Shown here piece by piece: positions 20,373 through 64,000 of a DNA stretch of 64,000 nt (positions within the stretch are counted from its first letter, which is position 1; every line of letters starts with the position of its first letter). Made by a program: the position numbers and the translations under genes. The notes under the pieces were generated by a model. The model saw only the letters and a list, made by a program, of their open reading frames with translations. It did not search any database and had not been told where the DNA came from. The DNA comes from Somniosus microcephalus. Lineage: Eukaryota. Location: contig CM126203.1 of the NCBI GenBank assembly GCA_052327205.1, forward strand, positions 272,118,001-272,182,000, given 5' to 3'.

Positions 20373-20529
20373 CCTTACACCCTCTCTCTTTCCCTCTCTC
20401 CTTCCCACACAGACAGACAGACAGACAAACTCTTTTATATATATTAAAAATTATTTCTACTTTTTTCATAACAACATGCCCTCAAAAAACCCTCGGCACT
20501 GCCGGGCACTCCAGCTAGTACAGTTATAA

Positions 20530-38545: not shown

Positions 38546-41500
38546 TTATAAATTCAGTCTTTGGGGCAGCTTCCTGATCCTTTCTGGATAGCGCTTTTCC
38601 TGAGTGTCTTGCTCTTGGTGCGGAGGCCCCCTGTCGTCAGTTGGCTCATCAGCTTCCGATGCTACTGTTTCTGGGGTAGATGCTACCTGTATGTCGGGTT
38701 CATCACCAGGTACGCGACACATGGGGTTGACTCGTTCCTGTGACTCTAGGATCTGGTCGACATGGCGTCTCACAATGTTCTCCCCAACATCCACTGTGTA
38801 CATTAGTGGCCCCTGCCGTGTGCATATCGTTCCAGGTTGCCATTTCTCTGTTCGGTAGTCGCGGGCCAAGACTGGTTGCCCTACATTGAAGCTCCTTGTC
38901 GGCTTCTCATTGATGTGCTGGAATTGCTTATTTTCAACATCCCTTCGTACATTTGGTCTGAGCAAATCCAGACGAGATCTCAACCTTCGGTTAAAGAACA
39001 TCATGGCCGGGGTCTGGTTGGTGACTGCATCTGTCGCATTTCTGTAAGCTAACAGGAAATTGTCCACCTTGTGCTGTAGTGGAATGTCGTCATCGCACAT
39101 GGCCCGTACTGCTTTTTTAAAGGTTTGTACGAACCTCTCAGCCAATCCATTTGTGGCTGGATGATACGGGGCGGATGTGTAATGCCTTACCCCATTCCTT
39201 TTCATGAATCTTCAAAACTCTTCGGACACAAACTGTGGTCCGTTATCAGAGCAAATCTGCTCTGGCAAGCTGTTCCTGGCAAATATGGTCCGTAGGACTG
39301 CAATAGTTTTCTCCGTGGTGGTGGACGACATTTTGATCACCTCAGGCCATTTCGAGTGCGCATCCACGGCTATTAAAAACATTGAGTCCATGAATGGACA
39401 AGCAAAATCAATATGCACCCTTTGCCATGGAGATGAGGGCCACTCCCATGGGTGTAGAGGGGCATGTGGTGGTGCATTTTGGACCTTCTGGCATCCTGAG
39501 CAGCTCTTTGTCAGGTCCTCAATTTGCTGATCGATCCCCGGCCACCACACATAAGCCCTAGCAAGGCTTTTCATCTTCACCCCTCCCAGATGGCCTTCGT
39601 GAAGCTCATTGAGCACTCTCTCCCTTAACTTGGGTGGAATTACCACTCGGGATCCACACATCAAGGTCCCCTGGCATACTGACAGCTGTTCTCTTCTGGA
39701 TGAGAATGCTGGCAACAGTGAGTTGCCATGTGTTGGCCATCCCTTCACCGTCCAGTTTTTACCCGAGACAGTGTCAGGTCATTTCGGGTCTCCTCTATAT
39801 CAGCGTTAGTTACTGGCAAGCGTTCAATTATAGTCGAATAAAATATTTCGACAGGGTCCACTGCTGGTGCTTCCTCCGCAGTAGGCAGTGGCAGGCGCGA
39901 TAGCCCATCAGCGTTTCCATGCTGTTTCGTGCCCTTATACTCGATTTCATATTGGTTCGCCCCTAGAAAAAGGGACCATCTTTGTAGCCGTTGCGCAGTC
40001 ATCACCGGAACGCCCTTCTTTGGATTAAAGATGGAGACAAGTGGTTGGTGGTCAGTCAGCAAGGTGAACTTCTGCCCGTGCAGATAGTGGTTGAACTTTT
40101 TCACTCCCCACACTAGGCTGAGGGCCTCCCTGTCAATCTGGGCGTAGTTACGCTCGGCTGAGGTTAGTGACCGAGACGCAAAGGCTACCGGCCTCTCCGA
40201 GCTGCCCGGGAACTTGTGCGACAGCACCGCTCCAATGCCATAGGGTGATGCATCACACGCCAACCGAATTGGTAGTGCTGGGTTGAAATGAGCCAACACC
40301 TCTTTTGATGTGATCAATTCTTTGCACTTCTGGAAAGCTCGCTTACATTCGTCATTCCACTTCCATGGTACCCCCGTTTGCAGTAGGGTGTTCAGTGGGT
40401 GTAGTACTGTAGACAAATTCAGCAAGAACTTATGGTAGTAGTTCACCAGCCCGTGGAACGACCTCAGTTGTGACGCATTTTCCGGTGCTGGAGCCTTGAC
40501 TACTGCCTCAATCTTTTCAGGGGACTTATGTAACCCCTCTTCATGAATAATGTGGCCACAATACGAGATCTGCTTCTGGAAAAACTCGCATTTGTGGCGA
40601 TTTGCTCGGAGCCCATATTCCTTCAATCTAGTGAGCACCTGCTCCAGGTTGGCAAGGTGATCACTGTCACTTTTGCCCGTGACCAGGATGTTGTCCAAAT
40701 AACACTGGGTCCCTGGAATCCCTTGCAGGACTTGATCCATTGCCCTTTGCCAAATAGACGGAGCTGATGCTACCCCGAACACCAGCCGATTGTGTTGGTA
40801 GAGACCTTTATGAGTGTTGATCGTGAGGTACTGTTTCGAGGCTTCTTCTACCTCCATTTGCAGGTACGCCTGGGCCAGATCAATCTTAGTGAAGCGTTTC
40901 CCTCCAGATAGCGAGGCGAAAATATCTTCAATCCGTGGAAGCGGATATTGTACCGTGTGAAGGACTGGGTTCACTGTCACCTTAACGTCCCCACAGATGC
41001 GAACCTTCTTTGGTTCCCCAGGCGTATTACTCAACGACCTCTTCATTACAGGAATGATGGGTGTAGCCCACTCGCTCCAGTCCACTTTGGACAGTACTCC
41101 TGAACGTTCCAAACCTTCCAGCTCTGCTTCGACGGCTGGGCGGATTGCATAAGGTCTGGCCTTAAAAAAAACTTTGGGCTTGCATTTTCCTCTATTTTGA
41201 TCGTCGCTGTTATGCCTTTTAGTGTTCCGAGTCCCTCCTGGAACACTTCTTGTGCGTCAGTTAGCATTTTTGACAGTCGTCCAGGTGTGACGTCGTCATC
41301 GTTTTTGGCATCTACAGTCAGTGCTTGTATGGAATGCCAATCTAGCTGTATCTTCCAGATCCATTCACGTCCTAGTAGTGGTGGTCCTCCATCTGGCAAT
41401 ACATATAGGTCCATTTTTGGTGTTTCCTTGCCGTTATATATAACGTTCATCCTTATTTTTCCTTTGGGGTAGACTTTTTGCCCCGTGTACGTCTTCAAGA

Positions 41501-42476
41501 CACTCTCTGTATCTCTCAAGGGTATATGTGAGAATAGCCGCTTGTAGTCCCTTCGGTTTATGACTGTTAGGGCTGATCCTGTGTCCAATTCCATTTTCAC
41601 TTGGACTCCAGCTATCTTGAGCGTGACCCAGATAGTTTGGTGATCCTCCGTTTTGATCACCTTATGTAGTTTCAGACAACCCAGCTCCTTGCTTCCGGAG
41701 TCTGTATCACTCTTCTGTTCGTCTGAACTACTCTCCGTCACCTTATGTACCTTCTTGTACTTCTCCTGTGGAGATTTCTTGCTGCTGGTTTTCTTTCCCG
41801 ACCTGTAGACTCTTGCTATGTGTCCTACTTTTCCACACTGTCTGCACACTTTGTCCTTGAACCAGCAATCATTATGGTCGTGTGTTGTTCTGCCGCAGCG
41901 ATAGCACTTCACTGTTCCGTATGACATTTCATTTGTGCCATATTCTTGCGGTCTCCGTTGTATCTCTGCAGCGCCCCGTGCGGCTGCTTCGTGTGATACT
42001 GCCATGCTGAAAGCCTTGTCCAGCGTAAGATCCTTTTCTGATAGAAGCCGTTTCTGGGTTCCTTCACTTTGAAGCCCACACACAAACTTGTCCCTTAAAG
42101 TATCTGCTAGTCCCGTTCCAAACTGGCAGTGTTTTGATAGCTTGCGCAGTTCCGTTAAATACTCAGCATTACTTTCATCTTTATGCTGGTTCCTTTTGTG
42201 AAACTTAAATCTTTCTGCTATCAGCAGCGGTGTGGGGTTTAATTGGTCCTGTAGGATTGACACTATGTTTCCAAAATCCTTTTCCACTGGCTTCTCTGGG
42301 GTTACTAGGTTTCGCAGTAAGCCATACGTTTTTGCACCCATTGAATTCAACAATACCAGCGCTTTCCTCTCATCTGGCACTTCATTCGCCTTGCAGTACA
42401 CTTCTATGCGTTCAACATATGTCGTCCAATGTTCGACTTCATTGTCGAACGCTGTGATACTGCCACTCTTCGGCAT
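38546..42476 (-). pseudogene. gag-pol polyprotein, frameshifted
   Basis: Four consecutive ORFs (41046-42476, 39745-41112, 39212-39748, 38546-39205); RT catalytic motif reads YLDN instead of YLDD; integrase HIDFA, SDNGPQF, TNGLAER. Confidence 0.93.
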
Positions 42477-42694
42477 CCCTGGGTGTGGTTAGACTGGCTC
42501 AAAATGGCGTTTTCCCACGCTCTCCCTTCTCCGCTGTGGCTCAAAATGGCATTTCCCGCGCTCTCCCTTCTCCGCTGCGGCTGCTCGGCCCTTGAACACC
42601 GGCTGCGCTCTGCACGTTTCCCTTTCTTCCCCACTGACGCTGCTCGTCCCTTGAACACCGGCTGCGCTCTGCGCGTTTTCCTTCGCGCCTCTCT

Positions 42695-43447: not shown

Positions 43448-43801
43448 GGTTGCGCCACCCATTAGCGCCTAAAGAGGTCTAGAAGTGGGGCGCTAGCCAA
43501 CTAGCGCCCGGGCGCAGCGAACCCTGCATCTCTTCCCAAATTGAGCGGACATTTAGCGCCGGTGCTAAACTGTAGCGCCTGCTCACTGGCGCACGCAGAT
43601 CATGATGTCATTTCAGTGTGCAATGCCCTTGGGGCGCCCCGGACTGGAAATTCAGTGGCGCCCCCCTCCGTTCCGCCTGTCGCTACCAACAACAGGTTAC
43701 CGTGAACGTTTCCCAGTCGCTGTCGGGCTGGGGGTGGGGGTGCTATTTAAAGGGGACTCTTCCTGGATTATTAGTGGTAGCCATTTTTGGACCACACCTT
43801 C

Positions 43802-43839
<38 letters not shown>

Positions 43840-43965
43840 GCTCAGGGACAAACGGAGAGCCATTCCTGCAGTGAGCCAGTGCTGGCTGAGGAACTTTAGC
43901 CTTCTGAACATAACTTTGCAGTTGGTAAGCTTCTCAACCGGCATAACTTTCAGTGCGCACTTACT

Positions 43966-45068
43966 ATGGGGGCTGCATTGGATGGGAACGTCGTCCTTCT
44001 CAATCACACTGACGGCACAGAGACGCAGGGATAGAGTGGCAGGCATGGCCAGACAGAGGAGGGCCAACAGACGTCGGCACACGAGACCTTATGCTGCCAG
44101 GGTTTTCCGCCAACAGTTTTCGTATATCAACATGTCGGAGGAGCAGTGTTTCCGAAGGCTGCGCTTCAGTAAGGAGGTGGTCACTGAGCTCTGCCACCTG
44201 CTTCAGCCAGATCTGCAGCCTCAACTAAGGTGCAGGACATCTCTGTCGGTGGCTGTGAAGATCACTGTGGCTCTAAACCTCTATGCCAGCGGCTCCTTTC
44301 AGGCCGCTGCTGGGGACATTGCCAACATCTCACAGTTCACGGTGCATTGCTGCATCCGTCAAGTGACTAATGCCCTCTTTAAAAGGAGACGGCAGTACAT
44401 CTCCTTCCCAATGACCCCGGACAAGCAGCGAGAGCGCGCCGAGGGCTTCGCAAGGATAGCGGGCTTCCACATGGTGCAGGGCGCCATTGACTGCACGCAT
44501 GTGGCTTTGTGGGCGCCTCTAGAGAATGCGCAACCGAAAGGGGTTCCATTCTTTGAATGTGCAGCTGGTCTGTGACCACCGACAGCTGATACTCGCTGTC
44601 AGTGCCCACTTTCCAGGCAGCAGCCACGACGCCTTCATCCTGCGCCAGACTTCTGTGGCAGACCTTTTCGAAGCCCCAGCTCACCCAGGAGGCTGGCTTC
44701 TCGGGGACAAGGGCTATCCTCTGCCCCGGCTGCTGACCCCGCTCCGTTCGCCCAGCACCCCTGCTGAAGAACGATACAACGAGAGCCATCAAGTGACTAG
44801 GAACATCGTGGAGCACACAATCGCCGTGCTGAAGCAACGGTTCCGCTGTCTGGACCATTCCGGAGGAGCCCTTCAGTACTCACCTGAGCGAGTCTCCCAC
44901 TTCGTGGTTGTGTGTTGCATGCTGCATAACCTGGCAATCCTCAGGACCCAGCCAATGCCACCAGACATTGAAGCACCAGCAGAGCAGGAGGAGGAGCAGC
45001 ACCAAGACGGGAGGGAGGCACAAACTGCAAGGGCCGTCCGTCAGAGGCTTCTAGCAAGTCGCTTCTAG
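43966..45068 (+). pseudogene. Harbinger/HARBI1-like DDE transposase, one frameshift near 44530
   Basis: [75 protein letters not shown]. Start position uncertain. Confidence 0.9.
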
Positions 45069-45374
45069 GCCCCTCTGAGGGAATGCTTTCTGCCATTCCA
45101 AGAACATTAATGGAACCATTCTGCTACCCCTAAGCCGGTCAAGGCAACAATTTGTGCAAAGAACAGACATGGACATTGTGAATAAATAAACTTCTTTATT
45201 TAACAAACTGTGTATCCTTCCCGCATGACAAAGCAATGGAAACAAACACCAAAACAAACAGACTGCCACATAACTGGCTCTCACACCCTGGAGACAATGT
45301 CCAAAACATAACCAACATTCAGACCAGCATCCTCGGCCTTGAATGAAAGAAATAACATAATTTAGCATCACCCC

Positions 45375-47241
45375 CTACTTTTTGCCCCTCGATGATGATC
45401 TGCTTCCCTTGCGGAATTGTCCCCTTCCCACCCTGCAGCTCCTCCGTAATGGGACCCCAGTGGCTGCAGCAAGGCTGGGGGAGACCTGCTGACTGTCCGA
45501 AACTGAGACCGCAGATGCCCTTGAGGTACGGCCTGGACCAGCTCTGGGCCTGGAGGGCCCGGCTGCTGACTGCTCCAACTCCGCATGGGCGGCAGCAGTC
45601 TGTCCTACAGGTGGTGGCAGCTGCAGTGGAGAAGTGCCAGTGGTGGCATCAGGAATGCTGTCATCCTGAGAGCGGACAGCAGCTCCCTGGTCGGCCGACA
45701 CACTGGCACTCTGACAGGGCAGCACCGCAGCATGCGCAGCAATCGGCTGGTGCACAGATTGCTGGCCTGCTGTGGCGCAGCGAGGGCCCCGGGGACTCCT
45801 GCCCGATCCAGCGAAGGTGGCAGCAGTCAGTGCTCGCGTGGCCTCAATCTGCGTCTGCATGAGACCAGCCATTGACTGCGTGGCAGCATTCAGCACTTGT
45901 GTGGCAGGTGCCAGTGCTTCGCCGAAGTCCTGGACAATCCTTGCCAGTGCTGCACCGAAGTCCTGCACACTCCTTGCCTGTGCTGCGCCGAAGTCTTGGA
46001 CACTCCTTGCCAGTGTCTCAATGGAATCGGGCATCCTTGCCACTGCAGCCATGAGCTCAAGTGTGCCTCAGCCCAGCCTGGGCGCTCATTTCTGCGAGGG
46101 CACGCACCTCTTCTGCGCTCTGTGCAGCAGCACTCGTGGCCCGACTCATCCTCCGGGGAGATGGCCCCCGAGCTTCCCTACCCCCCTCGCGTTGCTGCAG
46201 GCCGCTGGGTCCTGGAGCTGCATCCTCCTCGGACCATTCCCCCCCCGCTCCCCCCCAGGGAAGGCGTCTCCCCAGTCTGGACATGGGCTGGCTTGCTTGA
46301 GGGTGGCACGGATGGTCCGGCTTCCTCCTCCTCGTTGCCTCCAGAGTCACTCGCACTGGCAGCTTGAGGGCCCGCCTCCCGAGCTGGTGATGCAGCATCT
46401 GAAAGCAGGGAGGTTCAAGAGTGGCTTTAGCGAAAGGACAGGGTAGCAGCAAGGGATGCATGAGGGCTGCAATGCTCTGAGTTGGCTCGAGAGTGAAAAA
46501 GCATGCTGGTGTGAGGAACAAGTGGAAGGAGAGAGGTCAAAAAGGTGATGACCTTACCATTGCTGTCCACAATGGGGTCGGCATCTCCAGAGGCGACGGG
46601 TCCAATCATCCGGCTTGCCACAATCCGATGGACTCGCTCCTCCAGGTCTGTGAGGGTCTGCAAGTGAGGCCGGCCTCCTCCGGTTCGATGCTGTTGCCTT
46701 CTATTATGGGCCAACTTGGCCTGCAAGAGAAAGGATGGGGTGTGAGGAAACCTGCAGCCCTGATCTGGGATGACATGCCTCCCATGGTCCAGGAGCCCTT
46801 ACATTATGCTGCCCTGATCTGGGATGACGTGCCTCCCGTGGTCCAGGAGCCCTTACATTATGCACAGAGCTGAATGTGCGTGTGTGTTTCCAGAAAGGGC
46901 CATGGGTGCTGGATGACAGCTGGGCATTGGGGCTTTGCACACCCTCTGGCCATAAAGTGAGGTCCAGATGGAGGGATGAAGATGATTCTGAAAAAGGCAC
47001 TCACCCTGACGACCCGAGTGAGGTTGTTGAACTTCTTCCTGCATTGCACAGGAGTCCTGGGAACCATGCTGCTGGAGGTGACTCTGTTGGAAACCTCCCT
47101 CCAAGCTCTGCGATAGTCGCTGTGCTGAGGCCTCCTGCCATTCTCTGGGTAGAGTACAGATCGCCTGCACTCCACCGCGCCAACCAGAGCATCCAATGCC
47201 CCCTCGCTGAAGCGCTGCGCTCTCTCCCTGGCCCTCTCCAT
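45375..47241 (-). pseudogene. Harbinger Myb/SANT-like DNA-binding partner gene with 3 exons (47241-47005, 46720-46558, 46398-45375)
   Basis: MERARERAQRFSEGALDALV...AWREVS...RTPVQCRKKFNNL; canonical GTGAGT/TTGCAG and GTAAGG/TTTCAG introns; exon 2 AKLAHNRRQQHRTGGG; exon 3 has a frameshift or stop in the G-rich tract near 46180-46260. Confidence 0.85.
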
Positions 47242-47265
47242 GTTCAGGCAGTTATCGACGCCACA

Positions 47266-49862
47266 GGTAGTGGGAGTGGTATATAGACCCCCAAACAGTA
47301 ATGCGGTGGTTGGGGATGGCATTAAAAGAGAAATTAGAGATGCGTGCAATAAGGGCACAGCAGTTATCATGGGTGACTTTAATCTACATATAGATTGGGC
47401 TAACCAAATTAGTAACAATACTGTGGAGGAGGAATTCCTGGAGTGTATACGGGATGGATTTCCTGGACCAATATGTCGAGGAACCAACTAGAGATCAGGC
47501 CATCTTAGACTGGGTATTATGTAATGAGAAAGGATTAATTAGCAATCTTGTTGGGCGAGGCCCCTTGGGTTGGAGCGATCATAATATGATAGAATTCTTC
47601 ATTAAGATGGAGAGTGAAGTAGTTGACTCAGAGACTAGGGTCCTGAATTTAAATAAAGGAAACTATGATGGTATGAGGCGAGAGTTGGGTCGGATTGATT
47701 GGGGAATGTCACTCAAAGGGTTGATGGTGGATAGGCAATGGCAAACATTCAAAGATCGCATGAATGAACTACAGAATCTGTTCATCCCAGTTTGGCATAA
47801 AAATAAAACAAAAATGGTGACTCAACCATGGCTAACACGGGAAATTAGGGATAGCATAACATCCAAGGAGAGGACGTATAAATTGGCCAGAAAAAGCAGT
47901 AAACCTGAGGATTGGGAGCAGTTTAGGATTCAGCAAAGGAGGACAAAGGGATTAATTAAGAGGGGGAAAATAGAGTATGAGAGTAAGCTTGCAGGGAAGA
48001 TAAAAACTGACTGTAAAAGCTTTTATAGATATGTGAAGAGAGAAAGATTGGTGAAGTCAAGCGTAGGTCCCTTGCAGTCAGAAGCAGGGGAATTTATAAT
48101 GGGGAATAAAGAAATGGCAGACCAATTAAATGCATACTTTGGTTCTGTCTTCACAAAGGAGGACACAAATAACCTCCCAGAGATGTCAGGGAACATGGGG
48201 TCTAATGAGAGGAAGGAACTGAAAGAAATCAGTATTTGTAGGGAAATGGTGTTAGGGAAATTGACGGGATTGAAGGCTGATAAATCCCCAGGACCTGATA
48301 ATCTACATCCCAGGGTACTTAAGGAAGTGGCCCTAGAAATAGTAGATGCATTGCTGGTCATCTTCCAAAATTCGATAGACTCTGAAACAGTACCCATGGA
48401 TTGGAGGGTAGCTAATGTTACCCCACTATTCAAAAAAGGTTGTAGAGAGAAAACGGGGAATTATAGACCGGTAAGCCTGACATCGGTAGTGGGGAAAATG
48501 CTAGAGTCCATTATAAAAGATGTAATAGCAGAGCACTTGGAAAACAGTGACAGCATCGGACAAAGTCAACATGGATTTACAAAAGGTAAATCGTGCTTGA
48601 CTAATCTACTGGAATTTTTTGAGGATGTAACTGGTAAAATAGATACGGGAGAACCAGTGGATGTGGTGTATTTGGACTTTCAGAAGGCTTTCGATAAGGT
48701 CCCGCATAAGAGATTAGCGTGTAAAGTTAAGGCACATGGGATTGGGGGCAAGGTATTGACTTGGATAGAGAACTGGTTGGCAGACAGAAAGCAAAGAGTT
48801 GGAATAAACGGGTCTTTTTCCGAGTGGCAGGCAGTGACTAGTGGGGTACCAGAGGGATCGGTCCTGGGACCCCAGCTATTCACAATATATATAAATGATC
48901 TAGACAAGGGAATTGGATGTAATATCTCCAGGTTTGCAGACGACAAAAAGCTGGGTCGGAGTGTGTGTTGTAAGGAGGATGCCGAGAAACTCCAGTATGA
49001 TTTGGACAGGTTGGGTGATTGGGCAGAAGCATGGCAGATGCAATATAATGTGGATAAATGCGAGGTTATCCACTTTGGTGGCAAAAACAGGAAGGCAGAT
49101 TATTATCTGAATGGCAATAGATTGGGAGAAGGGGAAGTGCAACGAGACTTGGGTGTCCTTGTGCACCAGTCGCTGAAGGTAAGCATGCAGGTGCAGCAGG
49201 CGGTTAAGAAGGCAAATGGTATGTTGGCCTTCGTAGTGAGAGGATTCGAGTACAGGAACAAGGATGTCTTGCTGCAGTTGTATAGGGCCTTGGTGCGACC
49301 ACACCTGGAGTATTGTGTGCAGTTTTGGTTGCCTTATCTGAGGAAGGATGTTCTTGCCATGGAGGGAGTTCAGCGAAGATTCACCAGGCTGATCCCTGGG
49401 ATGGCAGGAATGACGTATGAGGAGAGATTGGGTCGATGAGACTTATACTCGCTGGAGTTTAGAAGAATGAGAGGGGATCTCATTGAAACTTATAAAATAC
49501 TAACAGGACTAGATAGACTGGATGCAGGAACGATGTTCCCGATGGCCGGGGAGTCCAGAACCAGGGGTCACAGTCTAAGGATAAGGGGTAAACCATTTAG
49601 GACTGATGAGGAATTTCTTCACCCAGAGAGCGGTGAACCTGTGGAATTCTCTACCACAGAAGGCAGTGGAGGCCAATTCATTAAATATATTCAAGAAGGA
49701 GTTAGATATATTTCTTAAGGCTAAAGGGATCAAGGGATATGGAGAGAAGGCAGGGACAGGGTACTGAATTTGGATGATCAGCCATGATCACATTGAATGG
49801 CGGAGCAGGCTCGAGGGGCCGAATGGCCTACTCCTGCTCCTATCTTCTATGTTTCTATGTTT
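47266..49862 (+). mobile_element. CR1 LINE (subfamily A), most of ORF2
   Basis: 661-aa ORF 47454-49439 with RT motifs; a few disablements; (TATGTTTC)n tail at about 49846-49863. Confidence 0.95.
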
Positions 49863-51271: not shown

Positions 51272-54200
51272 ACAATGGCCTAGAAATTTGATAAGGCCCG
51301 AAAACGGGCACGAGGATCACAGTGCCAGTTCAGAGGGCTGCAGGCTGCGGGCAAATTTCGTGCTACCTGCTAATTTACATGATTGTAGCGTTCAGCCCAT
51401 CGCTGAACGCACTGCTGAGTGGCTGAATGCTCAGCAGGGAGCTCAAGTTCATGTCAGGCTAGCACCACTTAAAGCAAGCCTGCACTTCTTAAAGGCAATC
51501 TGCACCTCTTAAAGGGGCGGCACATTCTGCCTGCAGCAGCTGCTGGAACTGGTTGTAGAGGTAAATGTGAGAAAGAAGCAGATTGCTTAATGGTTCAACA
51601 GGCCAGAGAAAGGGCTCCAAGATTCTCTGATGCAGCACTGGAGGCCTTGGTCCAGGAGGTCAACTCCAGGAGAGAGGTCCTCTGTCCAGGAGGCCCTCCA
51701 GGCAACAGACCAGACTACAGTGGAAGCGGATAACCAGTGTGATAAATGATAGCAGTATAGCCCCGAGGACCTGGACTTAGTTCAGTAAGAAGTTTAGTGA
51801 CCTCACACGAGTGGTCAAGGTCAGTGAATTCGTCTTCAAATGCTGTCTCTCACCATCTGCACCTCGAGCCTCACGCAATGCTCAGTGCACCACCCCCCTA
51901 TCACTCATCTACCAACAATCTCTACCAAACACGACTCGCACCTTACATTCATAGCTTCACCTCACCCGCACACTTGCCACTGTTGCCTCACACCCACATC
52001 TCACAGCTTCAACACAAGCTATTCGACCATGACGGGCACATCAGCTAAACACATTACACCATACTCACTGACACACTTCCCTTTCTCTTGGAGAAAAAGG
52101 TGGCTTATAACGGGTGCCAGCAGACCTTAACTGGTGGGGTACAGGCTCGCCTGCATCGCCTCACCCCCTCGGAGGAGATGGTGCTGGCCATTCTTGGCAG
52201 GGGCAATGCTGAGCCCATAGCCAGCGGCGGGGCTGAAAGAATAGAAGATGATGGTATCTTCATACTTTATCCTCCTCGCATCCCACTTCCTCCTCATCCC
52301 ACAACCTCTTCTGATTTACAATCTACACATGGTGTAAGCATGCACGTCTTATTTTCCCCCCCTCTGCTCACCACAACTCTACCCTTGTGCCTTCCTCATT
52401 TTAGACACCCAAGAAATCCAGCCTGCCCAGCCAGTGAGTCAAAATGAAGAGGGAGAGGAAAGTGAAGAAGAAGAAGAAACAGTCACTCGATTTCACACTC
52501 CCAGCCACCAGCTCAGATACTGACAGTTCGCATACCTTAGAAGATAGGTTAGATGTGGGATCTGCACAGGGTGAGACACCGGACACAAGTGGCCTGCAGC
52601 CAGGGCAGGGGGAAAAGGGTAACTCAGGTGCCAGCTCCCCGGAGGGCAAGGTTGCACACGATTTCTGCTGCAGATGACTCCAATGAAGACTTCGCTGGGG
52701 CGGCCTACACGAGAACGCTGATGGATATGCACAATGAAATGCTTGGTGCATTGGCAGGCCTGCCAGAAAGCCTGAATGCAATGTCACAGAGCATGTCCAG
52801 CTCCAGACTTTCACAGGGCTTTGGGCAGACCTTGGAGCCCATCCTTCCCAGCGTGGAAGGGCTGGGCAGATCCATTAATGCACTTGTGGACCCAACTATC
52901 ATGCAGCGTCTGATGGCCAAAGTCTCAGCTTCCATTGCAGCACAAGCAGAAGCCACCCAATGTCGGAGTGTTGCAATGGAAGCTCAGACTGAAGTCGTGC
53001 AAACTCAGCTTGCTGCCACGCAGAGCACAGACTTCTGCCATTATGGGTGGGTTTACCAGTGTTGAAAGAGGGTTGCAGGGTGTCACAGCAGTCTGTACTC
53101 CATCAGATTGCTGAGGCGCTGCCCCGGGGGAGTGGCAATGAATCCGTGGAGGCCGCCCCTACTGTCCTCTCTCACGATGACAGCATTTGTCGTCCCACCA
53201 CTGCCACTCCACCAGCGCCCTTGCTGATGCCTGTCAGCCAGCCAGTCCAGATTGCTGCCGGCCATGCTGAGGTGGTGCAGTCAAAGGCCGGGCCTACTAG
53301 GTCATCCTACAAGGGCATCTGCAGTCTCCCCCACTGAAAGTCGGCAGCCTTCCACCGGCCATGTTGCAGCCACTGGGGCAGCACTGCGTAAGAGCACTAC
53401 GATAGACAAAGGCACATGCAAGACAGTCCCTAAGGGAATGCCCAAGGGTGATTAGTTGATTTTTTGATGTAATATTGGATGAATAGATGTTGGATTGGAA
53501 TAACAACAGAAAATGCTGGAAATACTCAGCAGGCCAGGCAGCATCCGTGGAGAGAGAAACAGAGTTAACGTTTCAGGTCTGGGACCCTTCATCAGAACTG
53601 GAAAAAGCTGCAGATGTAACAGATATTAAGCAGGTGCAGAGACAGGGGGTGGGGTTTAGCAGGGGAGGAAGGAATAGAAAGAACACCCTGTACTTTTGTA
53701 AGCGGCAGGAAAGATAAAATGTTGCAAATGGGAATGGCAAAAATCATACTGCATGAAAAATGGGGGCAGGGATAATTATCTGAAATTAATGTTGAATGGG
53801 GAAAAAGGGCTGTCTGGGTTGCCTCCCTCCTTTCGCTTTCTCTTCCTCTTCCTCCTTCTCATCTTCCTCCTGCTCCTGAGCTGGTGGCAAGGGCTGTGCC
53901 CTCATGACAGCCAGGTTGTGGAGGGTGCAGCAGACCACCAGGAATCAAGTACTGTAGGGCTCCTCCAGTGCGGTCCAGGCAGCATCCCAACGGTCTGCTC
54001 TATGATGTTTTGTGTGGCAGCATGGCTCTCGTTTACACATTATGGCCACGTGTGGTTGGATGCAGAGCGGAGTCATGAGCCAGGAAGTCAAGGGATATCC
54101 CTCGTCACCCAGTAGCCACCCTCTGGTTTGTCTTGGCTCAAAGACTGAAGGAACAGCAGACTGGCGCTGAATAAAAGCATCATGACTGCTGCCAGAATAC

Positions 54201-55374
54201 TGGGCATTCACCATCATGATGTGCTGAGCATGGTCACACGCCAACTGCACATTCAGCAAGTGGAAACCTTCGCAGTTGCGGTACATCTCAGCATTTAGAT
54301 ACGGTGCCCGCAAAGCCACGTGTATGCAGTCGATGGCACCCTGCACCATGGGGAAGCCCATGATCCTGGCAAAGCCACGTGAACAGTCCGCCTGCTTCTC
54401 TTTGGTCAGAAAGAAGACAATAAAGTCCCCTCTCCTGGCATAAAGAGCATCTGTCACCTCTCTTATGCAGCAGTGGATGGTGAACTGGGAGATGTTACAG
54501 ATGTCACCTACTCCAGCCTGGATTGATCCCGACGCAAAATAATTCAGGGTCACTGTCACCTTCACAACCACTGGCAGTGCTGTCGTTGCTCTGGAGTGAG
54601 GCTGCAGGTCTGGTTGCAAGAGGTGGCAGAGTTCTGTGAGCACCTCCTTTGTAAAGCGCATACCTCTCACACACTGCTCCTGGCTCAAGTTGAGGTAAGA
54701 GAATTGCTCTCCAAAAACCCTAGGTGGATAAGGCCTCCTGCTGAGAGCCCTTCTCCCCACCTCCTCCTCTTCCCTCTGTGAGCAGCTTGTCCCCTTCTTT
54801 GCTGACTCTGCTCCATCTCCCTGTCATACTGCAGGCTAATGGGGATGACAACTAGAGCACTGATGACTGGGAACAAGTGGTCTGACCAGAACCCTTGTAG
54901 TCAGAAGCAAGGCTTTCTCCACTTGCAGCACCACTCCCTGCCACTTCAACAACTTTAAACAACTCGAGAAAGCTCCAAACACTTCCATAAACTTACACAG
55001 AGCCAGTAGAAATCAAAAAGCAAGTTACCTGAAAGTTGTTGATGATCCCTTTAAATAGCCCTGTTGGGGGTTCCTTCCTGCTGCTGAATGCATGTTCAGC
55101 TGTGCGAGGTTAACACAGGATGTTAGTTCCAGCAATGACAACGAAAATGGCAGCACTGGCATCAAATCAGCATTGCGTGCTGATTGACGTCATGATCTGC
55201 CTACCATACTCCAACACACGCTCCTACGGCGCCCGACCGCCCTCACCAAGATGGCGTCCGGCGCAGCCCGCACCAGAAGTGTGCGCATGCTGCTCGGAAA
55301 CCATTTTGGACCCAATTCGACAACCGTAGCAACCAAACAACGGGCACTATGCAACCGAATTTCTAGGCCATTGT
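51272..55374. mobile_element. Full-length degraded PIF/Harbinger transposon (Myb/SANT gene + at ~51590-53455; transposase - at ~53830-54880)
   Basis: Perfect 17-bp inverted repeat ACAATGGCCTAGAAATT at both ends (outer bases may be a palindromic target site); MVQQARERAPRFSDAALEALV; transposase [23 protein letters not shown]; stops and frameshifts; Penelope-tail insertion at about 53495-53795. Confidence 0.9.
53563..53599 (-). ncRNA. Minimal type I hammerhead ribozyme motif, second intact copy
   Basis: Minus strand AGTT-CTGATGA-AGGGTC-CCA-GACCT-GAAA-CGTT-AACT; differs from the 35897 copy only in the stem II loop. Confidence 0.72.
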
Positions 55375-56892: not shown

Positions 56893-57138
56893 TGTTAAGT
56901 CTGTGTGTTATATTGAGAATTACTACACAGACCACAAGAGTAAAATTTAACAGGTCTTCACTGGTTGAAGGTCAGGGCGGAACTGCCCAATAAATCCTTA
57001 CACAGCACTTATATACCGGTGTGGTCACCACCGGTATTACAGTATACAGCAGCCAAGATAAAGTAGTGCAACTCTTAAAATAGTTCTCTTAAAGGTGGAA
57101 CGGTTCTCTTAAAAGGTGGAACGGTTACATACACTACA
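56893..57138 (-). repeat. 3' LTR of the chimeric element (~246 bp)
   Basis: Starts TGTAGTGTATGTA like the sister LTR; shares the block tatac.ggtgtggtcac..ccggta.tacagtatacag; ends ...TTAACA; internal 20-21 bp tandem duplication at about 57083-57123. Confidence 0.85.
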
Positions 57139-57230
57139 ATCCTCCCTTTTTAGCTTAACAGTATATATTTCCCATTAAACATAACATCATAACATATATA
57201 CACAACTTCATGTAAGAACAGTTCACAGAT

Positions 57231-57850
57231 TCAGTCTCTGAGGCGGCGCCTCCTGACTCGGTCCGGATAACGCCTCGGTGGTGTAGTAGTTTTCGGTGGT
57301 GTAGTAGGTTTTCGTTGCTGGGGTGACTCATCTAATAGTCCTTCACTGGACTTAACAGCTTGAATTTTCGTAACTTCAGAACCAGCATTGTTGACTTCTA
57401 AAGGCTCGAGTACCTTGGGAAGTTTTTCTGCGTCCAGACTGATTTGGCTCAGTTCGGAGGGACCACGTGCGTGACCTGGTAGGGGTGATAATGGTTCAGA
57501 TGAGTCATCATCTTCATCATCCTGGGACAACTCACATGAATATACTAGATTGCTGTCCTCCTCAGTATCTACGTCCTCCAAATGTTTTATTATTTCTATT
57601 TTTGGAGCTTCAACTGTGAGTGTGGCTGTGGTCTGTGCATTACTTGATTTGCAGCTATATTCACCAGAGTCTTTGGGTATGAGATTTGTAATGGTAAGTT
57701 CTATCACATTCTTCTTTTGTTTAAATTTGTTTCGGTCAGAAGATTCGATTAAGCTCTGGTCTTTGTACCATCTGACCATCTTGGGAGTAGGTGTAAACTC
57801 ACAGCTCAAAGTAGCCGAATGCTTCTCTTCCCCTGTAATGTTCTGTAGTT
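57231..57850 (-). CDS. Chimeric ORF, part 2: rest of titin-like Ig, STK10-like linker, Gypsy C-terminal tail
   Basis: In frame with part 1 once the CR1 is removed: KVVKE|LQNITGEEKHSATLSCEFTPTPKMVRWY...DSGEYSC...; stop at 57231-57233. Confidence 0.88.
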
Positions 57851-60800
57851 ACATAGATACATAGATACATAGAAGATAGGAGCAGGAGTAGGCCATTCGG
57901 CCCTTCGTGCCTGCTCCGCCATTCGATGAGATCATGGCTGATCCTTTAATTCAGTATCCCGTCCCCGCCTTCTCTCCGTAACCCTTAACCCCTTTTGCCC
58001 GTAGAAATATATCTAATTCCCTCTTAAATATATTTAATGAGCTGGCGTACACTGCCCTCTGTGGCAATGAGTTCCACAGGTTCACCACTCTCCGAGTGAA
58101 GAAATTCCCCCTCATCTCTGTCCTAAATGGTTTAGCCCTTATCCTTAAATTATGTCCTCTAGTTCTGTTCTCACCCGCCAAGGGAAACATTCCTTCTGCA
58201 TCCAGTCTGTCTAGACCTGTCAGAATTTTATACACTTCTATGAGGTCCCCTCTCAATCTTCTAAACTCCAGTGTGTACATCCCTAAACTACATAGTCTCT
58301 CCTCATAGGTCATTCCCGCCATTCCTGGTATCAGCCTGGTGAATCGCCGCTGCACCCCCTCCATGGCAAGAACATCCTTCCTCAGATGAGGCGACCAAAA
58401 CTGTACACAGTACTCGAGGTGTGGTCTCACCAGTGCCCTGTACAGCTGCAGCAAGGTATCCCTGTTCCTGTATTCTAACCCTTTTGCTATGAAGGCCAGC
58501 ATACCGTTTGCCTTCTTGACCGCCTGTTGCACCTGCATGCTCGCCTTCAGTGACTGGTGTACAAGAACACCCAGGTCTCTCTGTACTTCCCCCTCTCCCA
58601 ATCTATTGCCATTTAAATAATAATTTGCCCTCCCGTTCCTGCACCCAAGGTGGATAACTTCGCACTTGTCCACATTATAGTGCATCTGCCATTTATCCGC
58701 CCAATCGCCCAGTCTGTCCAAATCGCTCTGGAGCTTCCTGGTCTCTTCCTCTGAGCCCACCCCCCCTCCTAGTTTAGTGTCGTCTGCAAATTTGGAAATG
58801 CTGCATCCGACTCCCTGATCCAGGTCATTAATGTAAATTGTGAACAGCTGGGGGCCCAGGACAGATCCCTGTGGTACCCCACTTGTTACTGCCTGCCATT
58901 CAGAAAATGAGCCGTTTATTCCAACTCTCTGTTTTCTATCTGACAGCCAGTTCCCTATCCACGCCAAAACTTTCCCCTTTATCCCATGAGCCTCAATTTT
59001 CCATGCTAATCTTTTATGTGGGACCTTATCGAAGGCCTTTTGGAAGTCCAGGTACACCACATCTACTGGCTCTCCCCCATCTATTCTACCAGTTACTCCC
59101 TCAAAAAATTCCAATAGATTAGTCAAGCACGATTTACCCTTTGTAAATCCATGTTGACTCTGTCCTATCCTGTCCCCATTTGCTAAGTGCTCCGCTATTT
59201 CATCCTTAATGATGGACTCCAGCATTTTGCCCACAACTGATGTAAGGCTTACAGGTCTGTAATTACCTGCTTTTTCCCTACCCCCCTTTTTGAATAGTGG
59301 GGTAACGTTAGCTACCCTCCAATCCATCGGCACTGTTCCCGAGTCTAATGAATTCTGAAAAATCATCCTTAGTGCATCCGCTATCTCTAGGGCCACCTCC
59401 TTCAGTACCCTAGGATGCATGTTATCAGGCCCTGGGGATTTGTCCACCTTCAATCCCTTTAGCTTCCTTAACACCATATCCTTAGAGATATTGATTTGCG
59501 TCAGTTCCTCCTTTGCCAATGTCCCTATTTTTCCCGATATCCCAGGGAGGTTTTTTGTGTCTTCCTTCGTAAAGACTGACCCAAAGTATGCATTTAGTTG
59601 ATCTGCCATTTCCTTATTTCCCATTATATATTCCCCCGTATCTGACTGCAATGGACCAACTTTGGTTTTCACCAGTCTTTTCCTTTTGATATATTTATAA
59701 AAGCTTTTGGAGTTAGTTTTTATATTTTCCGCCAGCTTGTTTTCGTAAGCTATTTTGCCCCTCTTGATCATGCCCTTTGCCCTCCTTTGCTCTATCTTAA
59801 ACTGTTCCCAATCTTCCGCTCTGGCGCTTTTTTTGGCTATTTTATACGCCCTATCTTTGGATTTTATGCTGTCTCTAATTTCCCCTGTTATCCACGGTTG
59901 AGTCACCTTTTTAGATTTCCTTTTATGCCAGATTGGTATAAACAATTTTTGCAATTTTGTCATTCTATCTTTAAATGTTTGCCATTGTTTATCTACCTCC
60001 AGTCCTCCCAGGAACGTTGTCCAATCAGACCTACTCAGTTCCCGTCTCATGGCATCATAATTCCCCTTGTTTAAATTCAGGACCTTAGTCTCTGAGTCAA
60101 TTTCTTCGCTCTCCATTTCGAGTGAGAAATCGATCATGTTATGATCGCTCTGACCCAAGGGTCCCCGTACAACAAGATTACTGATTAGTCCCTTCTCATT
60201 GCACAGTACCCAGTCCAATATAGCCTGTTCCCGAGTTGGTTCCTCGACATATTGATCCAGATAACCATCCCTTAAACACTCAAGGAATTCCTCCTCCTCA
60301 TTATTTTTACTGATTAGGCTAGTCCAATCTATATGTAAGTTAAAGTCACCTATGATGACAGCTGTGCTCTTATTGCACGCTTCTCTAATTTCCCTCGTGA
60401 TGCCCTCCCTAACCTCTATTTTACTATTTGGAGGCCTATATACCACTCCTATTAATGTTTTTCGCCCCTCGCTATTTCTTAGCTCCACCCATATAGATTC
60501 TGTATTAACTGAGTTAATATCCTTCTTTTCAATTGCATTTATCCCCTCTTTTACTAGCAATGCTACCCCTCCTCCCTTTCTTTTTTGTCGATCCTTCCTA
60601 AATACTGAATACCCCTGTATGTTAAGCTCCCAGCCCTGCTCACCCTGCAACCATGTTTCCGTAATCCCAATTAGATCATAATTATTAACCTCTATTTCCA
60701 CAGCTAATTCATCTACCTTGTTCCTGATGCTTCTCGCATTAAGGTATAAAACCCTCAGGCTTTTTTTATGCTCACATTTTTTATGAATTAGTTTGGCCCT

Positions 60801-61216
60801 TTGTTTTTTGTTCCTCACCCTTTTACCATTTATTTCTGTCTGCCTTTCACTTTCCTCTATTTCACTACATAGGTTTCTAGCCCCCTGCCATACTAGTTTA
60901 AATGCTCCCGAACTGCTTTATCAAAAATTACCCCGAGAACATCAGTTCCATCTCTGCACAGGTGTAGACCGTCCCTTTTGTATAGGTCACACCTACCACA
61001 AAACTGGTTCCAATGCCTCAAAAATTTAAAACCCTCCCTCTTACACCACTGCTCAAGCCACGTATTTAGCCTAACTATCCTGTTCTCTGTACTCTTACTA
61101 GCACGTGGCACTGGTAGTAATCCAGAGATTACTACCTTCGAGGTCCTACTTTTTAGCTTGGCTCCTAACTCCCTAAATTCTACTTGTAGGACCTCTTCCC
61201 TTTTTTTAGCTACGTC
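57851..61216 (-). mobile_element. Young CR1 LINE, truncated within ORF1, ORF2 intact
   Basis: (TATGTATC)n tail at 57851; flanked by a 3-bp direct repeat (gtt at 57848-57850 and 61217-61219). Confidence 0.96.
57951..60818 (-). CDS. CR1 ORF2: APE endonuclease and reverse transcriptase (955 aa, uninterrupted)
   Basis: YLNARSI, GITETWL, IGDFN, SDHN; [27 protein letters not shown]; no stops. Confidence 0.95.
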   Translation of the reverse strand: MRNKKQRAKLIHKKCEHKKSLRVLYLNARSIRNKVDELAVEIEVNNYDLIGITETWLQGEQGWELNIQGYSVFRKDRQKRKGGGVALLVKEGINAIEKKDINSVNTESIWVELRNSEGRKTLIGVVYRPPNSKIEVREGITREIREACNKSTAVIIGDFNLHIDWTSLISKNNEEEEFLECLRDGYLDQYVEEPTREQAILDWVLCNEKGLISNLVVRGPLGQSDHNMIDFSLEMESEEIDSETKVLNLNKGNYDAMRRELSRSDWTTFLGGLEVDKQWQTFKDRMTKLQKLFIPIWHKRKSKKVTQPWITGEIRDSIKSKDRAYKIAKKSARAEDWEQFKIEQRRAKGMIKRGKIAYENKLAENIKTNSKSFYKYIKRKRLVKTKVGPLQSDTGEYIMGNKEMADQLNAYFGSVFTKEDTKNLPGISGKIGTLAKEELTQINISKDMVLRKLKGLKVDKSPGPDNMHPRVLKEVALEIADALRMIFQNSLDSGTVPMDWRVANVTPLFKKGGREKAGNYRPVSLTSVVGKMLESIIKDEIAEHLANGDRIGQSQHGFTKGKSCLTNLLEFFEGVTGRIDGGEPVDVVYLDFQKAFDKVPHKRLAWKIEAHGIKGKVLAWIGNWLSDRKQRVGINGSFSEWQAVTSGVPQGSVLGPQLFTIYINDLDQGVGCSISKFADDTKLGGGVGSEEETRKLQSDLDRLGDWADKWQMHYNVDKCEVIHLGCRNGRANYYLNGNRLGEGEVQRDLGVLVHQSLKASMQVQQAVKKANGMLAFIAKGLEYRNRDTLLQLYRALVRPHLEYCVQFWSPHLRKDVLAMEGVQRRFTRLIPGMAGMTYEERLCSLGMYTLEFRRLRGDLIEVYKILTGLDRLDAEGMFPLAGENRTRGHNLRIRAKPFRTEMRGNFFTRRVVNLWNSLPQRAVYASSLNIFKRELDIFLRAKGVKGYGEKAGTGY

Positions 61217-63665
61217 GTTCTTTGACTACCTTTGACGGAGGCTCTTTAATAGTCAGCCTCGCCTTAGATTTTGATTTCCCTGCAATAAACTGCAGCAAGC
61301 CGGTCATCTTAGAAATTGTTTTTTTCAGAGTGAGACGATGAATAGTGCCACAATGCTCAATGTCCACATCTTCAGAAGCATGAAGAATTTCACCATTTAG
61401 TATCCATTTTGGAGGCTTCACGTCAGCAACTGAAAGCTCACACTCAAGAATGGCGTCACTTGGCTCTGTCACTTCCACATCACATATGGGTTTAATGATG
61501 GCAATTGATTGCTCTTCTACATATAACTTTGCTGTGCTTTGGTCATCTATGGCGTCGCACATGTAGTTGCCTTCATCTTCAAAAGCGACATTATTAATAA
61601 CGAGCTTCCTGTACACATCTTCACTCACAATCTCATATTTATTACTGGGATGAATCTCTTTGTCTTTGTAATACCACTTGACAGCATTTGGCCTGGAAAC
61701 CTTGCATTCGAAAATGACACGATGTTTTTCCATGCCAATCTTCTCTCTTAAGGGTTTCACAATTTTAACTGGCAATTCTTTAATTCGAAGCAAAGCTCTG
61801 GAAGTAGCGCTTTCAGCAACAAACTTGATCTCTGCAGCATCTTCAGTCTTTGCCTCTGCCACCAATTCCCTGAGTGGCTTATTACTACTGACACTGCTCA
61901 CAAAAGTGTGCTCTTTCTTCTTAGCTTTCAACTGATCGATGAATTTGACATATTCCCTTTCTTGCTCAGCTTTGATTCGTTTGGCCTCATCGCGCAGACG
62001 GTTTGTGTGTTCCTGTTCCATTTTCTCAATCAGCTGCTTCTGTTGTCTTTCCAGATTCTCCCACTCTGTGTCAAAGAACTTTTTCTTTGCATTCATCTCT
62101 TGCTCAAAACGGCGAATCATTTGTTCTAATTGCTGTTGTAGTTTGAAATTGAGTTGAATTCGAGCCCGGTGTTCCTCAGAAATGTGCATGTCTGTAGACT
62201 GGACAGACTCAGAATTCTCTGTCAAACTATGTTGTTGCTGTTCAGTGGAATTCTGTTCTGATACTTTGTTCTCTCCTGAAGCATTTATACACTCCTTCGT
62301 TTTTCCATCATTAGTCTGCAAGTCCATTTTAGACTTGTCTTTTGCACATGGGCTGGTCTTACCATCATCAGTTCCAGGGTCTGAGCTGATTGTCTTCACC
62401 GAGTTCTCACTCTCTGCTTTGTCACTGTCACTGCTGCATATGCCCTCATCCAATATTCTGGACAATCGTGCAGGTTTGACATCTTTTCTTTTTCCGGAAT
62501 CGCCCGTTATTGCTTTTAGGGGGTGCCAGTCCATATTTATTTTCCTGATCCACTCCCGTCCCAGAAGTGGTGGACCTCCCTCAGGTAGTACATATATGTC
62601 CATTCCTTGGTGTTCTTTGCCCTTATGTACCACCTTGACTTTTATCCTTCCGATGGGGTATACTCTTTGCCCCGTGTATATCTTTAATACTATCTCCGTA
62701 TCCCGTAGGGGAATATGTGTGAATAACCTTTTGTAATCTTGCTTATTCATGACCGTCAACGCCGATCCGGTGTCCAATTCCATCTTCACTTGGACTCCTG
62801 CTATCTGCAGGGTGACCCAGATAGTTTGTCGGTCAGCTTCCTTACTCACATTGTGAATTCTCAGACTACCCAGTTCCTTGCTGTTGGAGTCTGAATCCGA
62901 ATTCTGTTCATCCGAACTCTTCTCAGCCACCTTGTGTACCTTGCTGCACTTTTCCTGTGGTGACTTTTTGTTGCTGGTCTTCTTTCCTGACCGGCATACT
63001 TTAGCTATGTGACCAAGCTTGCCACATTTTCTACATTCCTGGTTTTTAAACCAGCATTGGTTCTGATCGTGTGTTGTCTTCCCACAACGATAACATTTCG
63101 TTGTACCCAAAGCCATTTGATCTACGCTGAGTACCGCTGCCTTCAGCTGCATTTCCGCAGTGCCTCTCGCTGCGGCTTTGTGCGATGCTGCAATAGAGAC
63201 AGCCTTATCAAGTGTAAGATCATTCTCTTCAAGTAGCCGCTTTTGTGTTCCTTCTTTCGACAATCCGCACACGAATTTGTCTCTCAGTGCCTCTGTCAGT
63301 CCTTCCCCAAACTGACAGTATTTCGCTAGCTTACGCAGTTCAATTAAGTACTCCGCGTTGCTTTCCTCTTTCAGTTGCGTTCTCGCATAAAATTTAAATC
63401 GTTCCGCTAACATCAGCGGTGTGGGGTTCAACTGATCCTTCAGGACAGCAACAATATTAGCGAAAGTCTGATCCGCCGGTTTAGCTGGTGATAGAAGATG
63501 CTTCAATAGCCCGTATGTCTTCGCACCCATTGAGTTTAGTAAGGTTAATGCTTTATCTTCATTTGATATTTTATTTGCCTTACAATATATCTCTATGCGT
63601 TCTACATACGTGGCCCAATCTTCAACATCGGGATCGAAATCGTTGATGTTACCACGCTTAGGCAT
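61217..63665 (-). CDS. Chimeric ORF, part 1: Gag-protease fused to STK10-like linker and coiled coil and titin-like Ig domains
   Basis: ATG at 63665 (MPKRGNI, compare sister MPKSGSI); two CCHC knuckles; ELDTGSA; then EEHRAR...AKKKFFDTE...[25 protein letters not shown] and I-set Ig repeats; cut by the CR1 at 61216. Confidence 0.88.
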
Positions 63666-64000
63666 CCTCGCGATCTTCTTGAGAAACAAAAGAATTTTTT
63701 TTTTTTCTTTTACAAAATGGCGGTTTCCCGCGCTTGTCTTCTTCCCCCGCCTCCGAAAATGGCGGCTTCCCGCGTTTGCCTTTCTCCCCCACTGACTGTA
63801 ATGGCGATTGCCGTATTGCTGCGTTCGCCCTCCCCCAGCGGTTTTCAAATCGCGCCTCCCAGCCCCTCTTGCAGTCCGGTCCTTTCCCCCCGGCTGCAGC
63901 GGAGTTCTCCGCGTTTTTTTTAAAATTTTCTCCCGCGCCTTACGCTGACCCGGTCGCTGCGCCTCGCGGCCTCGGTAGCTGCCCGGCCTTTTTCACCGGT

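What the first reader, a model, noticed from the sequence alone, without database searches (positions are those of the whole stretch)
57231..63665. Frame preserved across about six junctions suggests selection for translatability
Seen: the PR/linker, linker/coiled-coil (an internal deletion that appears to remove the conserved RKTLKRTR...RELRLLQK stretch), back-splice, STK10/Ig, Ig/STK10 and STK10/Gypsy-tail joins all keep the frame, with no stop over about 590 codons of cargo. The neighbouring sister element has three frameshifts and a dead RT motif. Inference: either the fusion protein is useful (to the element or host, for example a kinase-less STK10 coiled coil acting as a decoy), or an open frame to the native stop is needed for RNA stability or cis-packaging.
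Basis: inference. Interest (0 to 1): 0.7.

Follow-up and report, generated by a model that had tools for sequence, protein, structure and literature searches.

The report
Retrotransposon filters host cargo by frame
A shark jumping gene that swapped its copying enzymes for scraps of host genes shows no inherited stop or frameshift in those scraps while their amino acids drift freely, so it likely needs to be read through to the end rather than to make a useful new protein; this particular copy is itself broken by a second mobile element.

Summary
All six joins are in frame, but the Ig cargo is obscurin, not titin. This copy is not open: a 3,366-nt LINE at 57851-61216 stops the frame at 61206. 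The joins arose once and were copied (241 to 1,132 motif matches). Short matches between coding sequences are in frame 37-52% of the time, so the six joins alone are modest evidence. The comparison among copies is stronger. In 137 independent insertions, inherited cargo changes were 89 missense, 35 silent, 0 stops and 0 small frameshifts; copy-private changes were 430, 162, 18 and 24 (about 9 disablements expected, p=0.0004). The missense/silent ratio relative to private changes is 0.96 in cargo and 0.33 in Gag-protease. An open frame is selected; the cargo's amino acids are not detectably selected, and the decoy idea lacks support. Most derived copies end at a shifted stop, not the native one. 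The likely filter is nonsense-mediated decay or translation-coupled packaging, untested. This scan noted similar families, and this reading, on other DNA of this genome.

The parts
62449..63665 (-). Gag (zinc knuckles) and aspartic protease of a non-autonomous Ty3/Gypsy element; ATG at 63665
   Evidence: Pfam zf-CCHC and gag-asp_proteas/Asp_protease_2; 81-93% identical to autonomous single-ORF partners; inherited missense/silent ratio 0.33 of neutral
62174..62458 (-). STK10 linker piece, entered through a 10-nt in-frame match to the protease end
   Evidence: 97.5% identical to host exon at G000:C8; junction
61911..62177 (-). STK10 coiled coil (PKK), two spliced exons, after a 414-nt in-frame deletion with a 4-nt match
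   Evidence: Pfam PKK; undeleted precursors exist
61841..61910 (-). STK10 upstream exon reached by back-splice (circular RNA junction at 61910/61911)
   Evidence: exact donor and acceptor, both phase 0; five exons sum to 1,245 nt, equal to one turn in the precursor
61217..61851 (-). Obscurin Ig cargo, first piece (spliced exons)
57851..61216 (-). Inserted LINE (endonuclease + RT, ORF2 open over 988 codons at 57951-60917) that breaks this copy; stop in the Gag frame at 61206-61208; 3-nt target duplication
   Evidence: no break at this place listed among the other sampled copies
57509..57850 (-). Obscurin Ig cargo, second piece
57327..57523 (-). STK10 piece that completes the single turn of the circle
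57231..57326 (-). Gypsy integrase-end tail with basic RRYP.R motif; last codons in a shifted frame; stop at 57231-57233
   Evidence: matches tail of autonomous partners; stop classes
57139..57151 (-). Polypurine tract
   Evidence: sequence
56893..57138 (-). 3' LTR (TG...CA); its 5' twin lies about 450-700 nt beyond the window end; 1 mismatch in 247; 5-bp target duplication
63666..64000 (-). 5' leader (continues beyond the window to the primer site and 5' LTR)
38549..42488 (-).

Best explanation
This is a broken copy of a young, non-autonomous Gypsy family in which lineages that kept spreading show no inherited stop or frameshift in the captured STK10 and obscurin sequence while its amino acids change at the neutral rate, likely because an RNA must be translated almost to its 3' end to survive and be packaged. 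Shown: the stepwise build (STK10 circle, then deletion, then obscurin), short matches at five of the six joins (the back-splice join is an exact splice junction), an abundant autonomous partner with one long Gag-Pol frame, constraint on the family's own Gag-protease, neutral cargo residues, and no inherited disablement. Inferred: capture by reverse-transcriptase template switching; the partner supplies RT and integrase in trans; the element's own Gag-protease acts on its own RNA. The filter I favour is nonsense-mediated decay. The parent has only about 75 nt between stop and polypurine tract, so an out-of-frame join at joins 1-4 would leave 1.2-1.9 kb untranslated. The cargo is translatable filler.
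For: Inherited versus private changes in 137 independent insertions. Cargo: 89 N/35 S/0 stops/0 small frameshifts/7 in-frame indels inherited, against 430/162/18/24/21 private; about 9 disablements expected; one-sided p=0.0004; same result under two other settings. Gag-protease: 40 N/47 S inherited against 250/97 private (ratio 0.33, p=7e-6); 0.27 for alleles absent from 20 autonomous copies. A looser pair test applied equally to all classes linked 116 of 293 shared non-CpG cargo substitutions but 1 of 16 shared disablements (p=0.007). Shared rearrangements of 30 nt or more (-57, -75, -93, -174, -327, +321, +354, -414, +924) are all in frame. Two new cargos in sublineages read through in frame. 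Shifted frames at joins 1-4 stop within 26 codons. Autonomous partner: 4,508 motif matches, YLDD, 1,317-codon single frame. Precedents: premature stops in gag lower unspliced RSV RNA through Upf1 (PMC2925335, passages); the IAP 1delta1 in-frame fusion acts in cis (PMC6466679, PMC7411935, passages).
Against: No test here separates decay from packaging or from a need for the tail peptide. Join 6 is in frame although a shift there would stop near the normal place. 14 shared non-CpG cargo disablements exist (2 stops, 12 frameshift groups), plus CpG stops in up to 12 copies. I class them as recurrent because carriers are not linked, but L188 and L189 share both a 6-nt and a 4-nt deletion and may be one small frameshifted lineage. 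Private deletions of 30 nt or more (new insertions aside) are also 5 of 6 in frame, so mechanism explains part of the in-frame bias. Weak constraint on the coiled coil is not excluded (13 N/8 S, ratio 0.67, p=0.44). Eight fixed silent differences from the host are unpolarised. Recombining copies are not independent, so p-values are approximate. 9 of the sampled loci had no flank check. Ty1 packages defective RNA in trans efficiently (PMC3945221, passages), and non-coding cattle ERV copies spread best (PMC10924933, passages), so the rule is not general.
Confidence: 0.72

Rival explanations
1. The frame must stay open so that the basic integrase-end peptide (RRYP.R..R) stays fused to the element's own Gag-protease, for RNA binding, nuclear entry or particle assembly in cis; the cargo is a neutral linker.
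For: The motif is in frame in autonomous, precursor and derived copies. Join 6 is in frame though not needed to avoid an early stop. Shared tail indels upstream of the motif are multiples of three; the one spread frameshift lies after it.
Against: The tail is much rewritten and its last residues were lost in most derived copies. Join 6 sits at a codon-phased LDE match. There is almost no power in the tail: one private net frameshift seen.
Confidence: 0.15
2. No selection on the cargo frame: joins are in frame through codon-phased microhomology and exon phase, and copies are simply too young to have decayed.
For: Matches of 4-7 nt between the coding sequences are in frame 38-52% of the time, and more for longer ones. 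LTR pairs differ by a median 0.9% (44 pairs). 30 of 82 full-length copies lack point disablements. Private large deletions are also mostly in frame.
Against: It does not explain 0 inherited disablements against about 9 expected while 124 substitutions were inherited in the same cargo. Six joins at 0.4-0.5 each is still about 0.004-0.016.
Confidence: 0.08
3. The chimeric protein, such as a kinase-less STK10 coiled coil acting as a decoy, benefits the element or the host.
For: Naive dN/dS against the host genes is 0.25 (STK10) and 0.39 (obscurin) for this copy and 0.40 pooled, below the roughly 0.70 that private changes give by the same count (arithmetic). The PKK segment ratio is 0.67, not significant.
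Against: At all 4 fixed amino-acid differences the copies keep the residue of other vertebrates and the host has changed. The inherited cargo ratio is 0.96. 21 copies lack 109 codons of Ig, 25 replaced the protease/STK10 join with unrelated sequence, and 2 replaced part of the coiled coil. Unbroken copies show no lower private N/S (59/24 against 245/87), and none of 54 copies stands out. This copy is interrupted.
Confidence: 0.05

Closest known systems
LTR-mediated retrocopies in animals (Tan et al. 2016, PMC5131818; 12 passages seen)
   Same: Host mRNA replaces internal ORFs; short matches at joins; several parent genes; sense orientation; 14 of 17 young Drosophila cases have their longest ORF in the parent's frame; some re-transpose.
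   Different: In the passages seen, the in-frame state is put down to youth and copy numbers are small. Here hundreds to over a thousand copies and intermediate stages allow inherited and private changes to be separated, showing selection on frame without selection on residues.
Mouse IAP 1delta1 (Saito et al. 2008; original not held; seen only through passages of PMC6466679 and PMC7411935)
   Same: Non-autonomous LTR element with an in-frame fusion ORF that acts in cis while enzymes come in trans.
   Different: 1delta1 is a gag-pol deletion of an endogenous retrovirus with no host cargo. Here pol is replaced by host sequence, repeatedly exchanged.
circRNA-derived pseudogenes (Dong et al. 2016, PMC4897178; 12 passages seen; author name recalled)
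   Same: Non-colinear exon join; mouse circRFWD2 copies are associated with LTR (MMERVK10C) sequence.
   Different: Here exactly one 1,245-nt turn is fused in frame to Gag-protease, with homology at both entry and exit.
Maize Bs1 (named in passages and reference list of PMC5131818; the paper itself was not held)
   Same: LTR element with a hybrid ORF from several host genes.
   Different: Bs1 is cited as able to give a functional hybrid protein; here cargo residues evolve neutrally.
pol-less Athila families (PMC2410132; 12 passages seen)
   Same: Non-autonomous families keep Gag under purifying selection.
   Different: No host cargo or frame-only constraint in the passages seen.
Rous sarcoma virus RNA and nonsense-mediated decay (PMC2925335; 12 passages seen)
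   Same: Premature stops in unspliced retroelement RNA trigger Upf1-dependent loss: the mechanism inferred here.
   Different: RSV protects a long 3' region with a stability element; this family's parent has a single frame ending about 75 nt before the polypurine tract.

Membership tests
Ty3/Gypsy LTR retrotransposon | Paired LTRs with TG...CA, target duplication, primer site, polypurine tract | tested here: met
   40 of 44 copies with both flanks have a 5-bp duplication; tRNA identity of the primer site not tested
Ty3/Gypsy LTR retrotransposon | Gag, protease, RT, RNase H, integrase in that order | tested here: not met
   Only Gag and protease in this element; the full order is in the partner family. 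Hence a non-autonomous derivative.
Mag lineage of Ty3/Gypsy | RT/integrase phylogeny | not tested
   Resemblance (single ORF, two zinc knuckles) is recalled only
LTR-mediated retrocopy | Intron-less host sequence replacing internal ORFs in sense orientation | tested here: met
   Exon-by-exon match to STK10 and obscurin loci of the same genome
LTR-mediated retrocopy | Short shared sequence at template-switch points | tested here: met
   4-10 nt matches at joins 1, 2, 4, 5, 6
circRNA-derived retrocopy | Back-splice junction at exact splice sites | tested here: met
circRNA-derived retrocopy | The circle exists as RNA in the host | tested here: inconclusive
   Reads across the join cannot be told from element transcripts
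IAP 1delta1-like cis-acting fusion ORF | Translation of the ORF raises mobility of the same RNA | not testable with these tools
   Only the population signature was measured
Domesticated chimeric host gene | Single conserved locus with amino-acid constraint | tested here: not met
   Multicopy; neutral cargo; no outlier among 54 copies; this copy interrupted; no Gag/protease-STK10 fusion among the best 120 hits of either protein search
Domesticated chimeric host gene | Orthologous insertion in related species | not tested
   No related genomes are held for this window

The most novel reading that the evidence does not exclude
The family works as an in-frame exon-shuffling engine: a translation checkpoint lets only in-frame chimeras multiply, so a vertebrate genome fills with over a thousand ready-made, frame-correct fusions of unrelated host genes without any selection on what the proteins do. 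Frame preservation in chimeric retrogenes would then be no evidence of protein function.
Probability: 0.55. Interest if true: 0.75.

Novelty: new variant of a known kind. Interest (0 to 1): 0.6.

Why it matters
In-frame joins in chimeric retrogenes are often read as a sign of a useful protein. This family separates the two: the frame is conserved, the residues are not. It gives a natural dataset for asking whether RNA surveillance shapes which mobile elements spread, and shows a route by which frame-correct domain fusions could be mass-produced before any function exists. Each ingredient (LTR capture of mRNA, circular-RNA retrocopies, cis-acting fusion ORFs) is known separately; I did not find the frame-only selection on captured cargo in the listings of searches, which cover open-licence papers only.

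Tried and rejected
(1) Titin as Ig donor: rejected; obscurin exons match at 97-99%, while solved-structure hits are distant. (2) An 'empty' Gag-protease-tail parent into which the circle inserted at one site: 0 matches to the gapped motif; autonomous partners carry the matching LDD/LDE codons at both ends instead. (3) Whole-element distance as a test of inheritance had little power, because copies are mosaics (cargo 30 N/12 S/0 stops, stop test p=0.62). It flagged two frameshift groups that were artefacts of precursor-class membership; I replaced it with local linkage. (4) A 360-nt in-frame deletion in 5 loci, and two pairs of loci, share flanks and were collapsed as duplications, not counted as transpositions. 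(5) Naive dN/dS against the host: rejected as a test. (6) Expression: no RNA holder on record was listed. Two RNA runs with a related species label lay on Gag-protease and STK10 parts at 92% or more, but cannot be told from partner or host transcripts; expression of this chimera is untested. (7) One row (join 2, shifted frames) used a wrong offset and was redone. (8) The 'unbroken' pattern missed tails reading RHYP, so 21 of 82 is a floor and 30 of 82 a ceiling. (9) Bs1 and Saito 2008 originals are not held, and no supplements were read; they may bear on novelty. (10) No structure or complex was predicted, since no binding is claimed.
Full report
What is there. The minus strand holds an LTR element: ATG at 63665, Gag with zinc knuckles, an aspartic protease, host cargo, an integrase-end tail with its stop at 57231, a polypurine tract and a 3' LTR at 56893-57138. 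The 5' LTR lies just beyond the window, differs by 1 base in 247, and a 5-bp target duplication flanks the pair. A same-strand LINE of 3,366 nt sits at 57851-61216 with a 3-nt duplication, and the Gag frame stops at 61206. The two remaining pieces are each stop-free and lie end to end on an uninterrupted natural copy.

Cargo. Protein searches name STK10 and obscurin. Both host loci were found, and the cargo matches them exon by exon at 92-99%, without introns. All six joins are in frame. Five STK10 exons sum to 1,245 nt, which equals the distance between entry and exit in precursor copies: one turn of a back-spliced circle. The autonomous partner family (4,508 motif matches; all 20 inspected run from the protease into RT-like sequence, 15 of them open over the 500 codons read; one inspected copy has a single 1,317-codon frame) carries codon-phased matches to the same STK10 site at its protease end and its integrase tail. 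Stages coexist: full circle (74 motif matches), deleted circle with or without later cargo (1,132), obscurin-bearing (241).

How surprising are six joins? They are single historical events. Exact matches of 4-7 nt between these coding sequences are in frame 38-52% of the time, so six conditions give roughly 0.004-0.016, and we see the family because it spread. The sister element is a different, older-looking family with two net frameshifts, one stop and YLDN. It is not a matched control. Family copies decay too: 21-30 of 82 full-length derived copies are unbroken.

The test among copies. I sampled by motif in chromosome order: 90 of the first 100 listed of 241 obscurin-type matches (the window's copy and 9 others were not taken), the first 30 of 74 precursors, and the first 30 of 1,132 deletion-type matches. 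Seven loci were the same place as others, and 6 were collapsed for shared flanks, leaving 137; 9 had no flank check. LTR pairs differ by a median 0.9% (44 pairs). Changes in one copy serve as the neutral standard. Changes whose carriers also share nearby alleles count as inherited. CpG transitions were set aside.

Cargo: private 430 missense, 162 silent, 18 stops, 24 small frameshifts; inherited 89, 35, 0, 0, with 7 in-frame indels. The ratio is 0.96 (0.62-1.47), and about 9 disablements were expected (p=0.0004). Gag-protease: private 250/97/10/16; inherited 40/47/0/0; ratio 0.33 (0.20-0.53), and 0.27 for alleles not seen in 20 autonomous copies. Without any linkage filter, non-CpG stops are 18 of 610 private and 2 of 327 shared cargo changes (p=0.012). 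A looser pair test linked 116 of 293 shared substitutions and 1 of 16 shared disablements. Shared stops and frameshifts fall mostly at CpG sites and slippery runs, in unrelated carriers; L188/L189 is a possible exception. All nine shared rearrangements of 30 nt or more are in frame, but so are 5 of 6 private large deletions. A whole-element distance test was too weak to show the deficit.

Against a useful protein. Naive dN/dS versus the host is 0.25-0.40, but at the 4 fixed amino-acid differences the copies keep the outgroup residue; the 8 fixed silent ones are unpolarised. Spreading lineages drop Ig domains or swap cargo. Unbroken copies are not more constrained. Weak constraint on the coiled coil cannot be excluded.

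Mechanism. Shown: frame-only constraint on cargo, and amino-acid constraint on the family's own Gag-protease. Inferred: the RNA is translated, its Gag-protease favours its own template, and the partner supplies RT and integrase. An early stop would not remove Gag-protease, so a second requirement is needed. I favour nonsense-mediated decay: the stop normally lies about 75-85 nt from the polypurine tract, shifted frames at joins 1-4 stop 1.2-1.9 kb early, and premature stops destabilise unspliced RSV RNA through Upf1 (PMC2925335). The exact native stop is dispensable: 64 of 67 measured derived copies end in a shifted frame. A need for the basic tail peptide is the main rival. RNA from a related species label lies on the element's parts but does not isolate the chimera.

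Comparison. It works like LTR-mediated retrocopies (PMC5131818), circRNA-derived pseudogenes (PMC4897178), pol-less Athila families (PMC2410132) and IAP 1delta1 (via PMC6466679, PMC7411935); I saw passages only. Ty1 and a cattle ERV show that an open frame is not a general need (PMC3945221, PMC10924933). Earlier notes of this scan report similar families and the same reading elsewhere in this genome; a sequence look-up returned nothing, so whether they are the same family is unchecked. They are leads, not support; the id of the Tan paper came from them.

Verdict. New variant of a known kind; interest 0.6.

Noticed in passing
window 57851-61216: The inserted LINE has an open 988-codon ORF2 and is about 80% identical to several other LINE copies in the window.
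   Followed up: partly
window 438-4049 and 12367-12900 (+): Long exons resembling CSPG4/NG2 (recalled, not searched); the element may lie in or beyond this gene.
   Followed up: no
L089-L093 (G000:C1, 60-109 Mb): Five copies tens of megabases apart share the same 3' flank, so a larger unit carrying this element was itself duplicated or mobilised.
   Followed up: partly
L190:2303-2776 (and about 24 other copies): A roughly 150-codon in-frame insert of unknown origin replaces the protease/STK10 join; no convincing Pfam match.
   Followed up: partly
L253:3600-4694 and L254: A sublineage carries other in-frame cargo: a coiled coil and a C2H2 (JAZ-type) zinc finger; donors not identified.
   Followed up: partly
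L148, L150, L165, L166, L221, L237 tails: An in-frame acidic insert of 43-69 codons in the tail, possibly from another Gypsy subfamily's integrase end.
   Followed up: no
L284:6131-6344: A much more diverged (77-84%) STK10 cargo piece with the same deletion join, suggesting an older or faster-changing relative.
   Followed up: no
L004 laid on runs X18 and X20: Contig depth suggests STK10-type cargo is multicopy in both other organisms but obscurin cargo only in X18; depth is a poor measure.
   Followed up: no
L060 (G000:C3:354.66 Mb): An intron-less 97% match to the STK10 C-terminal region, probably a separate processed copy.
   Followed up: no
window 18000-20500: A long 20-nt tandem repeat array with open frames on both strands.
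   Followed up: no
window 43781-47487 and 52400-54823: Harbinger-like transposase and Myb-like frames (recalled resemblance).
   Followed up: no
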